DNA from: Escherichia coli
GTDB taxonomy: Bacteria > Pseudomonadota > Gammaproteobacteria > Enterobacterales > Enterobacteriaceae
Length of the DNA: 64,000 nucleotides
Direction: 5' to 3' (one strand)
Assembly: GCF_024223415.1 (NCBI RefSeq)
Contig: NZ_CP100500.1
The position numbers and the translations under genes were made by a program. How positions within the stretch are numbered: the first letter of the stretch is position 1; each line of letters starts with the position of its first letter. The notes beneath the pieces are model-generated. The model saw nothing but the letters and a program-made list of their open reading frames with translations, was not told where the DNA came from and searched no databases. Positions 21,069 to 39,032 of the stretch are shown in pieces.

Positions 21069-21144
21069 TGGCTCCTCTGACTGGACTCGAACCAGTGACA
21101 TACGGATTAACAGTCCGCCGTTCTACCGACTGAACTACAGAGGA
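21069..21144 (-). tRNA. asnU: tRNA-Asn (GUU)
   Basis: Identical sequence to asnV. Confidence 0.95.
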
Positions 21145-22892: not shown

Positions 22893-22968
22893 TCCTCTGT
22901 AGTTCAGTCGGTAGAACGGCGGACTGTTAATCCGTATGTCACTGGTTCGAGTCCAGTCAGAGGAGCCA
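22893..22968 (+). tRNA. asnW: tRNA-Asn (GUU)
   Basis: TCCTCTGTAGTTCAGTCGGTAGAACGGCGGACTGTTAATCCGTATGTCACTGGTTCGAGTCCAGTCAGAGGAGCCA. Confidence 0.95.
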
Positions 22969-26037: not shown

Positions 26038-27354
26038 TTAAGCGCGTTGATTGTCTTTCATCAACAAAGCGGTCATTGCGGAAATCAGGCATCCAGCCAG
26101 CAAATAAATGGCGACGCTATGCCAGTTCCCCGCAAAGTAAGTGATGAGTGCAGCGGCAATGAAAGGTGTAAATCCACCGCCAACCACACTGGCAACCTGA
26201 TATCCGACTCCAGCGCCACTATAGCGATAACTGGCACCAAACATTTCGGTAAACATCGGTTGTTGTACACACACCACCATGTCATGCGCAATGTTTGCCA
26301 GCATTATGGAGAAGAAAACTATCCAGAAAATAGATTGTGCTTCAAGCGCCATAAAGAAAGGAAATGCGCTCAACGTTCCGATTAACGCACCTGTGATATA
26401 AACCCTGCGGCGACCAAAACGATCGGCAAGCCAGGCAAAACAGGGAATTGTCAGGCAGCTTAATCCACCTACCAGCAAACCAATATTGAGGAAAAGTTCG
26501 CGCGGTAACCCCATATTCTGGGTTGAATAATTAAGTGCGAAGGCGGTAACGATGTACATCGTCAGCAACTCGCACAGTCGTAGCGCAATAATCTTCAGGA
26601 AAGCACCGGGATGTCGTAATAGTGCTTCGATAACCGGGATGCGTTTTTTCGCGGCCGCTTGATTATGTTGCTGTTGTTCAAATTCCGCGGACTCCTCCAT
26701 GCCATTACGCACCCACAATGCTCCCAGTACCAGTACGATGCTAAACAGGAAAGGAATGCGCCAGCCCCAGCTTAAAAACTGTTCGTCAGTCGTCATCATA
26801 CTGATCAATGAAACCAGTCCGGTTGAAAGCAGTAAACCTACACCGTAGCCAACTTGTACACCGCTACTGTAAAAGGCTTTTTTATTTTTCGGAGCACTTT
26901 CAACGGAAAGCAACGCTGCGCCTCCCCATTCGCCGCCGACGGCAAATCCCTGAATGGCACGCAGCGTCACCAGTAAAATGGGGGCCCACCACCCAATGGT
27001 CGAGAAGGAAGGAAGAATACCAATCAAGGCTGTCGCGATACCCATCATCCAGACGGTCAGCATTAACATGCGTTTACGTCCCAGTCGGTCGCCAAAGTGA
27101 CCGAAAATGACACCGCCGAGCGGACGGAACAGGAATCCGACACCAAAGGTGGCAAATGCGGCGAGCGTTCCCATAGCAGGGCTTACTTGCGGGAAAAACT
27201 CGCGATTAAACACCAGTGCGGCGGTAATGCCATAGAGTAAAAAATCATACCAGTCGACGACGGCACCAGCGAAACTGCCTAACGCAGCTCGTCGGGCGCG
27301 ACTTAACGAAAGCGTCCCTTCATCGGGACGAGTGGAGATGAGCGTGGAGTCCAT
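26038..27354 (-). CDS. shiA: shikimate:H+ symporter (MFS)
   Basis: 438-aa MFS transporter in the expected position. Confidence 0.9.
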   Translation of the reverse strand: MDSTLISTRPDEGTLSLSRARRAALGSFAGAVVDWYDFLLYGITAALVFNREFFPQVSPAMGTLAAFATFGVGFLFRPLGGVIFGHFGDRLGRKRMLMLTVWMMGIATALIGILPSFSTIGWWAPILLVTLRAIQGFAVGGEWGGAALLSVESAPKNKKAFYSSGVQVGYGVGLLLSTGLVSLISMMTTDEQFLSWGWRIPFLFSIVLVLGALWVRNGMEESAEFEQQQHNQAAAKKRIPVIEALLRHPGAFLKIIALRLCELLTMYIVTAFALNYSTQNMGLPRELFLNIGLLVGGLSCLTIPCFAWLADRFGRRRVYITGALIGTLSAFPFFMALEAQSIFWIVFFSIMLANIAHDMVVCVQQPMFTEMFGASYRYSGAGVGYQVASVVGGGFTPFIAAALITYFAGNWHSVAIYLLAGCLISAMTALLMKDNQRA

Positions 27355-27596: not shown

Positions 27597-28712
27597 TTGC
27601 CCCCTGATGATTCTGATAGACTGCATTGCATTATAACCAGTAGGGAGGCGAGGTTAATTATGTTTTTAGCATCATTGTTGAGACGTATTGCATTTAGTTA
27701 CTACGATTATAAAGCTTATAATTTCAATATTGAAAAAACAGACTTTGTTGTTATCCATATTCCCGATCAAATTGGCGATGCTATGGCCATCTTTCCAGTT
27801 ATTCGGGCGCTTGAAATGCATAAAATTAAGCGTCTTTTAATTGTTACTTCGACAATTAATTTAGAAGTCTTTAATACGCTCAAACTTGAACAGACTAAAT
27901 TAACATTAGTCACAATGACTATGCAGGATCACGCAACATTAAAAGAAATAAAAGATTTAGCGAAGAACATAACACAGCAATACGGTACGCCGGATCTTTG
28001 TATAGAGGCGATGCGTAAAAAGAACCTGAAAACGATGTTATTTATCAGTCAGTTGAAAGCAAAAACGAATTTTCAGGTAGTCGGTTTAACCATGCAGTGC
28101 TATTCCCCTTTGTGTAAGAACGCGTCCCGGATGGATCAGCATCTCAGGGCTCCCGTACCCATGACATGGGCATTTATGATGCGTGAGGCGGGTTTTCCAG
28201 CAGTCAGGCCAATATATGAATTGCCATTAAGCGAGGATGTACTCGATGAGGTGCGCGAGCAAATGCGATCGTTAGGATCTTACATTGCGCTTAATTTAGA
28301 AGGTAGCTCGCAGGAGCGTACATTTTCATTATCGATTGCAGAAAATCTAATAGCAAAAATTCAAAGTGAAACAGATATGCCAATAGTGATCGTTCATGGA
28401 CCCAAAGGGGAAGATAAAGCCAGGGTATTAGTGGATTGTTATAATAATGTCTTCCGTTTATCCTTATCATCCTCGATTAAACGTTCGGCAGCAATCATAA
28501 AAGATGCTTATATCGCAATAACTCCTGACACCTCAATATTACATATGGCAAGTGCCTATAATACCCCCGTTGTTGCAATTTATGCTGATTACAAAACGCG
28601 ATGGCCCGCAATGGCCGATGTCTCGGAGTCAGTCGTCGTTGGACAAAAAATTGACAATATAAGTCTGGATGAATTCGCAAAGGCATTAAAAAGTGTTTTG
28701 TCGAGAATATGA
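27597..28712 (+). CDS. yeeL: glycosyltransferase family 9 (heptosyltransferase-like) protein; apparently intact here
   Basis: Continuous 371-aa ORF (start uncertain, possibly internal Met); position between shiA and yeeJ. Confidence 0.65.
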   Translation: MPPDDSDRLHCIITSREARLIMFLASLLRRIAFSYYDYKAYNFNIEKTDFVVIHIPDQIGDAMAIFPVIRALEMHKIKRLLIVTSTINLEVFNTLKLEQTKLTLVTMTMQDHATLKEIKDLAKNITQQYGTPDLCIEAMRKKNLKTMLFISQLKAKTNFQVVGLTMQCYSPLCKNASRMDQHLRAPVPMTWAFMMREAGFPAVRPIYELPLSEDVLDEVREQMRSLGSYIALNLEGSSQERTFSLSIAENLIAKIQSETDMPIVIVHGPKGEDKARVLVDCYNNVFRLSLSSSIKRSAAIIKDAYIAITPDTSILHMASAYNTPVVAIYADYKTRWPAMADVSESVVVGQKIDNISLDEFAKALKSVLSRI

Positions 28713-28971
28713 GGAGTACTTATGCATAGTAGTACCGAACTGTTATGAACGGTGGTGTCATCAATACTCTGAGGCTGGTCAATCATCACAGAAAGCCAGC
28801 CTTTGGATCAAAGCAATACTCACCAAATACGATCATAGTCACACCGAACGCGATTCAGGTGGTGCCGTATTGTTATTTATTCATTTTCTTTGAGAGAGGG
28901 CAAGCTCTATAGTGGGAATGTAAAAAAGAGTGCCCCGAATGGAGCACTCTTTAAGAAATTATAGCGGAAAA

Positions 28972-37638
<8,667 letters not shown>

Positions 37639-37875: not shown

Positions 37876-37951
37876 TGGCTCCTCTGACTGGACTCGAACC
37901 AGTGACATACGGATTAACAGTCCGCCGTTCTACCGACTGAACTACAGAGGA
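37876..37951 (-). tRNA. asnT: tRNA-Asn (GUU)
   Basis: Identical to asnV/asnU. Confidence 0.95.
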
Positions 37952-38942: not shown

Positions 38943-39032
38943 GGAGAGATGCCGGAGCGGCTGAACGGACCGGTCTCGAAAACCGGAGTAGGGGCAACTC
39001 TACCGGGGGTTCAAATCCCCCTCTCTCCGCCA
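38943..39032 (+). tRNA. serU: tRNA-Ser (CGA)
   Basis: GGAGAGATGCCGGAGCGGCTGAACGGACCGGTCTCGAAAACCGG...CTCTCCGCCA, long variable arm, anticodon CGA. Confidence 0.9.

What the first reader, a model, noticed from the sequence alone, without database searches (positions are those of the whole stretch)
27597..28712. yeeL glycosyltransferase appears intact next to yeeJ
In K-12 yeeL is annotated as a split pseudogene, as far as I recall. Here it is one continuous ORF of roughly 350-370 aa with a family-9 glycosyltransferase appearance, convergent with yeeJ. An intact glycosyltransferase beside a giant adhesin raises the possibility of adhesin glycosylation.
Basis: partly seen in the sequence, partly recalled or inferred. 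Interest (0 to 1): 0.3.

Follow-up and report, generated by a model that had tools for sequence, protein, structure and literature searches.

The report
Intact orphan glycosyltransferase gene yeeL
The window carries an uninterrupted copy of yeeL, a heptosyltransferase-like sugar-transferase gene that is broken in laboratory E. coli K-12. This intact form is the normal, already-annotated state in most E. coli, and comparative evidence argues against it serving the neighbouring giant adhesin YeeJ.

Summary
Window 27597-28712 (+) is one open frame, and the likely gene is ATG 27660 to TGA 28712 (350 aa). It is collinear with K-12 yeeL, whose only disabling lesion is CAA->TAA at codon 235 (window 28362-28364).

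It is not new. The exact protein is on at least 1000 public contigs. All 14 spread-sampled genomes without the K-12 allele annotate yeeL intact. The K-12 stop allele is in 765 of 5426 complete genomes, including BL21-AI.

The adhesin-glycosylation idea is not supported:
- yeeL is intact beside a dead yeeJ in 11 of those 14 genomes.
- K-12 YeeJ works without YeeL.
- Relatives in four other genera, and a 71% variant from human-gut metagenome contigs, have no adjacent adhesin.

Distant relatives lie in LPS-type clusters or are fused to an O-antigen-ligase domain. The most likely role is therefore an accessory lipopolysaccharide-type transferase. Low interest.

The parts
27660..28712 (+). yeeL coding sequence: 350 aa plus the TGA stop, an intact family-9 glycosyltransferase
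   Evidence: Translation. 100% identical to WP_000477903.1 of strain TUM9812. The exact protein is on >=1000 contigs. Pfam PF01075. GT-B/GT9 fold.
27597..27659 (+). In-frame upstream extension of the maximal ORF (TTG 27597). Probably untranslated leader; contains the Shine-Dalgarno GGGAGG 27643-27648 and GAGG 27650-27653.
   Evidence: RefSeq annotations in related genomes all start at the ATG and give 1053 nt.
28362..28364 (+). Codon 235: CAA (Gln) here, TAA in K-12 and B strains. This is the site of the K-12 pseudogene lesion.
   Evidence: The exact K-12 63-mer containing TAA is found in 765 of 5426 genomes, including BL21-AI.
27777..27779 (+). Asp40 in the IGD motif, aligned with the WaaC catalytic-base position Asp13. 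Invariant in the family.
28317..28319 (+). Arg220, aligned with WaaC Lys192 (donor phosphate contact). Invariant in the family.
28527..28532 (+). Asp290-Thr291 in the PDTS motif, aligned with WaaC Asp261-Thr262 (donor sugar/ribose contact). Invariant in the family.
28080..28151 (+). Residues 141-164: a family-specific, highly conserved but low-confidence loop of the N-lobe, with invariant Cys147 and Cys152. Candidate acceptor-binding element.
26038..27354 (-). shiA (shikimate transporter), divergent upstream neighbour. The shiA/yeeL pairing is conserved in Pseudocitrobacter.
28972..37563 (-). yeeJ, intact long variant (2863 aa) of the inverse-autotransporter adhesin, convergent with yeeL
28925..28952 (-). 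Intrinsic-terminator-like hairpin (12 bp stem followed by a T-run) after the yeeJ stop. No T-run on the + strand, so no clear terminator is seen for yeeL.
37876..37951 (-). tRNA-Asn (asnT), the insertion hotspot upstream of yeeJ. yeeJ lies between it and yeeL.
   Evidence: Discussion in PMC5595812. In EC958 the yersiniabactin island abuts the yeeJ remnant.

Best explanation
yeeL here is a functional-looking, ancestral 'orphan' family-9 (heptosyltransferase-like) GT-B glycosyltransferase of the Enterobacteriaceae backbone.

Shown: it is intact. It has the GT9 fold with the catalytic Asp and the nucleotide-sugar contacts conserved. It is under purifying selection between lineages. It is present and intact in most E. 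coli regardless of whether yeeJ is alive.

Inferred: it is a soluble or peripheral cytoplasmic enzyme whose basic N-lobe docks on an anionic glycolipid acceptor at the inner membrane. That acceptor would be an LPS-core-type or related lipid-linked glycan. The acidic C-lobe binds a nucleotide sugar, most likely ADP-heptose, and Asp40 acts as the base for an inverting transfer. The product would be a dispensable, non-stoichiometric surface-glycan decoration. K-12 and B strains would lack it because they share the Q235* allele.

Its position next to yeeJ is a by-product of yeeJ lying between the tRNA-Asn (asnT) hotspot and the old shiA-yeeL-mtfA backbone. It is not a functional pairing.
For: Intact and collinear with K-12 apart from codon 235.

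Active site: WaaC D13, K192, D261, T262 and H266 align with invariant YeeL D40, R220, D290, T291 and H295 (the WaaC sequence was validated against 2gt1).

Charge: N-lobe +8 and C-lobe -4, against +9 and -5 for WaaC. No transmembrane segment.

Selection: 52-66% identity across genera with about 100 invariant positions. dN/dS 0.10-0.29 between lineages.

Context of distant relatives: the Carnimonas and Halotalea genes sit in clusters with a second GT9, GT4, GT2, Wzy_C and Bac_transf genes. One relative is a Wzy_C (O-antigen ligase domain)-YeeL fusion.

Composition: yeeL is 39% G+C against about 50% for its neighbours.

Backbone status: Pseudocitrobacter has yeeO-amn-shiA/yeeL-mtfA with no yeeJ. 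A 71% variant, on human-gut metagenome contigs with an E. coli-like gene order, lies between hchA and mtfA with no yeeJ.

Independence from yeeJ.

Screen-level phenotype: in ST131 strain EC958, Tn5 insertions in yeeL were enriched in hypermotile cells (logFC 7.46; PMC5425062). In that strain yeeL is intact and yeeJ is a remnant.
Against: No acceptor or donor has been shown, and the LPS-type acceptor is inferred only from distant relatives and from charge. In Enterobacterales the gene is always solitary and never in the waa cluster. The basic RRWRK stretch in the WaaC N-lobe (residues 60-64) aligns with a non-basic YeeL segment, so Kdo2-lipid A itself is unlikely to be the acceptor; reading that stretch as the Kdo2-lipid A contact rests on recalled knowledge of WaaC and was not checked here. 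NCBIfam heptosyltransferase I/II/III models score far below their cut-offs. The gene has been lost repeatedly: nonsense in K-12/B, IS1 insertions, deletions and Shigella sonnei partial forms. Nonsynonymous changes dominate within phylogroup-B2-like alleles, on tiny counts. Both point to weak current constraint. The EC958 motility hit was never validated with a clean mutant.
Confidence: 0.55

Rival explanations
1. YeeL is a dedicated glycosyltransferase for the neighbouring adhesin YeeJ, analogous to Aah/AIDA-I or TibC/TibA. It would add heptose to the passenger domain in the cytoplasm before export.
Against: The genes are convergent and not co-transcribed, with a yeeJ terminator between them. 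Of 14 sampled genomes, 11 keep intact yeeL beside a decayed yeeJ. K-12 and G1/2 keep intact yeeJ with yeeL dead or deleted. The yeeL region is present in 4930 genomes against 2782 for yeeJ. MG1655 YeeJ is surface-exposed and active in K-12, which lacks functional YeeL, and the paper does not mention glycosylation (PMC5595812). No adhesin lies next to the relatives in four other genera, nor next to the 71% variant on human-gut metagenome contigs. The TibC N-terminal beta-barrel, beta-hairpin thumb and Cys4 iron finger are absent. There is no sequence match to TibC at E<=10. YeeJ is an Ig-domain inverse autotransporter and not a beta-helix passenger.
Confidence: 0.04
2. YeeL is a protein O-glycosyltransferase with other, unlinked substrates such as flagellin, other autotransporters or envelope proteins.
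For: yeeL insertions were enriched in a hypermotility screen (PMC5425062). E. coli heptosyltransferases are reported to be promiscuous, and heptosylated flagellin has been reported in ETEC (PMC5000012). The GT9 fold is shared with TibC.
Confidence: 0.1
3. YeeL is a decaying or non-catalytic relic. It is still open in many strains but no longer does anything useful, or it has only a structural role like the GT9-fold NDH subunit PnsB1.
Against: All catalytic-site equivalents are invariant over 19 sequences from several genera. dN/dS between lineages is 0.10-0.29. In 14 of 14 sampled genomes the frame is still open although the adjacent yeeJ has decayed. An excess of nonsynonymous differences among very close strains is expected from the time lag of purifying selection.
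Confidence: 0.15
4. YeeL glycosylates a different non-protein acceptor, for example a small molecule, enterobacterial common antigen, colanic acid or a periplasmic glucan precursor, possibly linked to a neighbouring transporter.
For: The gene is solitary and lies next to transporters: shiA in E. coli and Pseudocitrobacter, and MFS genes in Erwinia and Rosenbergiella. GT-B enzymes include many small-molecule glycosyltransferases.
Confidence: 0.12

Closest known systems
LPS core heptosyltransferases WaaC (HepI), WaaF (HepII) and WaaQ (HepIII), CAZy family GT9 (PDB 2gt1/2h1h/6dfe, 1psw), and the uncharacterised Veillonella GT9 3tov
   Different: Only 12-15% identity. NCBIfam HepI/II/III models score 18-40 bits against cut-offs of 135-185. 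YeeL is encoded away from the waa cluster as a solitary gene. It has an extra 27-residue N-terminal helix and a family-specific Cys-containing loop at residues 141-164. The basic RRWRK stretch of the WaaC N-lobe aligns with a non-basic YeeL segment. WaaC E222 aligns with Gly250. Acceptor and donor are unknown.
Bacterial autotransporter heptosyltransferases (BAHT: TibC, Aah)
   Different: There is no N-terminal beta-barrel, no beta-hairpin thumb and no Cys4 iron finger. YeeL has no conserved Cys in the C-lobe. It is 350 aa against 406. It is convergent with the adhesin gene and not co-transcribed with it. The neighbour is an Ig-domain inverse autotransporter and not a beta-helix passenger. The two genes are evolutionarily uncoupled.
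K-12 yeeL pseudogene (b4497; formerly b1979/b1980)
   Same: Same locus and same 1053-nt frame, with 95.8% nucleotide identity within the gene (44 differences).
   Different: K-12 has TAA at codon 235 and the window has CAA. There are also 17 missense differences. In the literature K-12 yeeL appears only as a neutral pseudogene integration site.
YeeL-like GT9 genes of Halomonadaceae (Carnimonas bestiolae, Halotalea alkalilenta)
   Same: Full-length homology (290 bits to the family profile, 36-39% identity), with the same motifs.
   Different: These genes are embedded in a surface-glycan cluster with a second GT9, GT4, GT2, Wzy_C and Bac_transf genes. The E. coli gene stands alone.

Membership tests
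Glycosyltransferase family 9 (Pfam PF01075, GT-B heptosyltransferase-like) | Match to the family profile above the curated threshold | tested here: met
   PF01075 at 30 bits against a cut-off of 22, E 4e-7, covering only the C-lobe, residues 209-321. The precomputed hits of the homologues agree.
Glycosyltransferase family 9 (Pfam PF01075, GT-B heptosyltransferase-like) | Two Rossmann-like lobes (GT-B) most similar to solved GT9 structures | tested here: met
   [not shown]
Glycosyltransferase family 9 (Pfam PF01075, GT-B heptosyltransferase-like) | Catalytic Asp in the N-terminal GD motif, and donor-binding Lys/Arg and Asp-Thr in the C-lobe (WaaC D13, K192, D261, T262) | tested here: met
   D40, R220, D290 and T291 align with these positions and are invariant in 19 family members. 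The roles of the residues come from the WaaC and TibC literature and from recalled knowledge.
Glycosyltransferase family 9 (Pfam PF01075, GT-B heptosyltransferase-like) | Uses ADP-heptose (or another nucleotide sugar) with inversion | not testable with these tools
   Needs an enzyme assay.
LPS heptosyltransferase I/II/III orthologous groups (WaaC/WaaF/WaaQ; NCBIfam TIGR02193/02195/02201) | Score above the equivalog cut-off | tested here: not met
   40, 20.6 and 17.8 bits against cut-offs of 185, 135 and 170.
LPS heptosyltransferase I/II/III orthologous groups (WaaC/WaaF/WaaQ; NCBIfam TIGR02193/02195/02201) | Encoded in the waa (rfa) core-biosynthesis cluster | tested here: not met
   The gene lies between shiA and yeeJ, and no polysaccharide gene is nearby in any Enterobacterales context examined.
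Bacterial autotransporter heptosyltransferases (BAHT; TibC/Aah) | N-terminal beta-barrel, beta-hairpin thumb and four-Cys iron finger inserted in the C-lobe (PMC4358343) | tested here: not met
   The predicted secondary structure shows a helix and then a Rossmann lobe, with no barrel. The only conserved Cys residues are 114, 147 and 152, all in the N-lobe. Features taken.
Bacterial autotransporter heptosyltransferases (BAHT; TibC/Aah) | Closest structural and sequence relative is TibC/Aah | tested here: not met
   [not shown]
Bacterial autotransporter heptosyltransferases (BAHT; TibC/Aah) | Genetically coupled to its adhesin substrate (co-inherited, co-oriented) | tested here: not met
   The genes are convergent. 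yeeL is intact with yeeJ dead in 11 of 14 sampled genomes, and the reverse holds in K-12 and G1/2. No adhesin lies next to the relatives in other genera or next to the 71% metagenomic variant.
Bacterial autotransporter heptosyltransferases (BAHT; TibC/Aah) | Glycosylates the adhesin | not testable with these tools
   Needs mass spectrometry or glycan staining of YeeJ with and without yeeL.

The most novel reading that the evidence does not exclude
Most natural E. coli make an extra, so-far undescribed surface-glycolipid decoration, for example an additional heptose on the LPS core or a related lipid-linked glycan. It would be installed by YeeL and would influence envelope-dependent traits such as motility. 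It would have escaped notice because both laboratory lineages, K-12 and B, share the Q235* allele.
Probability: 0.3. Interest if true: 0.45.

Novelty: already known. Interest (0 to 1): 0.15.

Why it matters
Mostly it does not. The intact gene is the ordinary, already-annotated state of a widespread E. coli gene, and its closeness to yeeJ is incidental. The residual value is practical. yeeL is a conserved, catalytically plausible family-9 transferase of unknown substrate. It is inactivated by the same nonsense codon in K-12 and in BL21-AI, the one B-lineage strain seen here, so envelope chemistry learned from those strains may miss whatever it does. A repaired K-12 allele would be a simple tool to find out.

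Tried and rejected
1. Looked for a sequence link to the adhesin heptosyltransferase TibC. There was none at E<=10 with either a single sequence or the family profile, and only a second-tier structural match.

2. Tested whether the MFS transporter upstream of the Erwinia and Rosenbergiella homologues is a conserved partner or a ShiA orthologue. The proteins are unrelated, so this is coincidence.

3. Searched the literature for yeeL. Plain 'yeeL' mostly hits author names. With yeeJ or 'pseudogene' it returns metabolic-engineering papers that use K-12 yeeL as a neutral integration site. No paper links yeeJ to glycosylation. The only functional hint is an unvalidated TraDIS hit.

4. Promoter scan of the shiA-yeeL spacer gave nothing above the shuffled expectation.

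5. The first guess at the EC958 coordinates missed the locus and one request exceeded the size limit. The locus was found on the next try.

6. My first translation was off by one base and was redone.

7. Considered that the roughly 11-nt length difference from other genomes might lie inside the gene. It is entirely intergenic.

Full report
**What is there.** The frame contains an ATG at 27660, preceded by GGGAGG (27643-27648) and GAGG (27650-27653). From that ATG the product is 350 aa. This matches the 1053-nt CDS that RefSeq annotates at this locus in every related genome I inspected.

The neighbours are:
- shiA, divergent, at 26038-27354 (-).
- yeeJ, convergent, at 28972-37563 (-). It is intact at 2863 aa and starts MATKKRSGEE like K-12 YeeJ.
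- a yeeJ terminator hairpin at 28925-28952.
- tRNA-Asn asnT at 37876-37951, followed by mtfA.

**Comparison with K-12.** The K-12 gene has the same length and is flagged 'internal stop'. Codon by codon, the only disabling difference is codon 235, CAA in the window (28362-28364) and TAA in K-12. There are also 17 missense differences, 44 nucleotide differences in all, and no indel in the gene. The small length differences seen in the megablast hits are all intergenic.

**How unusual is an intact yeeL?** Not at all.
- The exact window protein is already in the public collection on at least 1000 contigs, named 'MULTISPECIES: glycosyltransferase family 9 protein'. It equals WP_000477903.1.
- The locus is found in 5284 of 5426 complete E. 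coli genomes, 4930 of them with >=80% coverage.
- The K-12 63-mer carrying TAA is exact in only 765 genomes, including BL21-AI. Another 3724 genomes differ from it by 1-3 bases.
- I took 14 genomes at even steps down the hit lists without regard to gene status. All 14 annotate an uninterrupted 1053-nt yeeL.
- Other independent lesions exist: IS1 insertions, deletions and Shigella sonnei partial forms. The gene is therefore dispensable, but being intact is the norm.

**What the protein is.**
- Pfam PF01075 (family 9) is passed, though weakly and only over the C-lobe (30 bits, cut-off 22).
- NCBIfam models for heptosyltransferases I, II and III are far below their cut-offs. Sequence or profile searches of the PDB give only marginal WaaC/WaaF hits.
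- An AlphaFold model built on a 19-sequence family alignment is confident (pLDDT 83, pTM 0.81). The exception is a conserved loop at residues 141-164.
- I validated a WaaC sequence against PDB 2gt1 and bridged it to YeeL through distant family members. WaaC D13, K192, D261, T262 and H266 align with YeeL D40, R220, D290, T291 and H295, all invariant in the family.
- YeeL shows the same charge split as WaaC: N-lobe +8 and C-lobe -4, against +9 and -5. It has no membrane-spanning segment.
- It differs from WaaC in a 27-residue N-terminal helix, a Cys-containing loop (C147, C152) and the absence of WaaC's RRWRK stretch.

**Is it linked to YeeJ?** Four independent lines say no.

1. *Integrity is uncoupled.* Of the 14 sampled genomes with intact yeeL, yeeJ is intact in 3 and is a frameshifted, truncated or nearly deleted remnant in 11. 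K-12 has intact yeeJ and dead yeeL. Strain G1/2 carries a yeeJ identical to the window's but has lost shiA and most of yeeL to an IS1 event. At genome scale the yeeL region is near-complete in 4930 genomes and yeeJ in 2782. Published surveys found complete yeeJ in 35-40% of strains.

2. *YeeJ works without YeeL.* MG1655 YeeJ is surface-exposed and promotes biofilm in K-12 backgrounds. The study does not mention glycosylation (PMC5595812).

3. *The adjacency is not conserved.* Pseudocitrobacter has yeeO-amn-shiA/yeeL-mtfA with nothing between yeeL and mtfA. A 71%-identical variant, found on human-gut metagenome contigs with an E. coli-like gene order, sits between hchA and mtfA. E. albertii has a 66% paralogue between tonB and yciA. 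Erwinia and Rosenbergiella copies have no adhesin nearby. yeeJ therefore looks like an insertion next to the asnT tRNA hotspot, into an older shiA-yeeL-mtfA backbone. In EC958 the yersiniabactin island abuts the yeeJ remnant at the same spot.

**What it most likely does.**
- An exhaustive profile search finds 1894 relatives at E<=1e-3, 34 of them at E<=1e-30.
- The nearest full-length relatives outside Enterobacterales are in Halomonadaceae. In Carnimonas and Halotalea the gene lies in a cluster with a second GT9, GT4 and GT2 transferases, Wzy_C (O-antigen ligase/polymerase domain) and an initiating Bac_transf. In Halomonas maura it is solitary.
- One metagenomic relative is a single polypeptide joining a Wzy_C domain to a YeeL-like domain.
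- These contexts fit the WaaC-like charge distribution and the low G+C of yeeL (39% against about 50% for its neighbours).

My best reading is therefore an accessory enzyme that adds a sugar, probably heptose from ADP-heptose, to an anionic lipid-linked glycan of the LPS-core type. The fold, motif conservation and selection are shown. The acceptor, the donor and any physiological effect are inferred.

The only experimental hint is a TraDIS screen in ST131 strain EC958. Insertions in yeeL were enriched among hypermotile cells (logFC 7.46), but the hit was not followed up (PMC5425062). In that strain yeeL is intact and yeeJ is a remnant, so any effect would be YeeJ-independent.

**Selection.** dN/dS between divergent alleles is 0.10-0.29, which indicates purifying but not strong constraint. 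Among closely related B2-type alleles, nonsynonymous changes outnumber synonymous ones (for example 9 to 1). The counts are too small to separate relaxed selection from the usual excess seen between very recent relatives. Together with the recurrent losses, this keeps a 'decaying or dispensable' reading alive at modest probability.

**Verdict.** The finding is ordinary, however: an already-annotated gene in its common intact state. The proposed link to YeeJ glycosylation is contradicted by comparative evidence. The remaining open question is the substrate of a conserved orphan GT9 that K-12 and at least one B-lineage strain (BL21-AI) lack. That question is of modest interest.

Noticed in passing
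window 28972-37563 (-): yeeJ here is an unusually long intact variant of 2863 aa, against 2358 aa in K-12. blastp gives two overlapping alignments, which implies about 500 extra residues of repeated Ig-like domains. That is longer than the published UMN026 variant (+906 bp). Identical DNA occurs in strains G1/2, G6/7, G8 and ES5.
   Followed up: partly
window 21069-21144, 22893-22968, 37876-37951 (tRNA-Asn) and 38943-39032 (tRNA-Ser): Three tRNA-Asn genes bracket the yeeO...yeeJ segment. In EC958 the yersiniabactin island (fyuA) abuts the yeeJ remnant at the asnT side, consistent with this being an insertion hotspot.
   Followed up: partly
window 27530 (shiA-yeeL spacer): A 9-nt stretch present in K-12 (TGGTGTTGT) is missing in the window. 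Only 38 of 5285 records match this locus at >=99% identity, so the window carries a minority allele of the whole region.
   Followed up: no
L006 10001-11059 (E. albertii CP117647.1): A 66%-identical yeeL paralogue is inserted between tonB and yciA, a completely different chromosomal site. The gene family therefore moves as a single-gene unit.
   Followed up: no
L017 1955-4288 (metagenome contig, protein P0151): A 777-aa fusion of a Wzy_C (O-antigen ligase-type) membrane domain with a YeeL-like GT9 domain, next to a GT4/polysaccharide-deacetylase protein.
   Followed up: partly
window 28080-28151 (YeeL residues 141-164): The most conserved family-specific segment (CYSPxCKxASRMDQxxRAPVPMTW, with invariant C147 and C152, plus C114 nearby) is the only internal region the structure model cannot place (pLDDT 33-38). 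It may be an acceptor-binding or metal-binding loop.
   Followed up: no
L002 7438-8135; L019 1322-2240; hits H22 and H23: IS1 elements have repeatedly hit this spot: between yeeL and yeeJ (TUM9812), inside yeeL (noe1104, Iso00225), and as a deletion of shiA and most of yeeL (G1/2).
   Followed up: partly
[not shown]
   Followed up: no
window 27660-28712 versus flanks: yeeL is 39% G+C, and yeeN and the shiA-yeeL spacer are about 40%. shiA, amn and yeeJ are about 50%.
   Followed up: no
[not shown]
   Followed up: no
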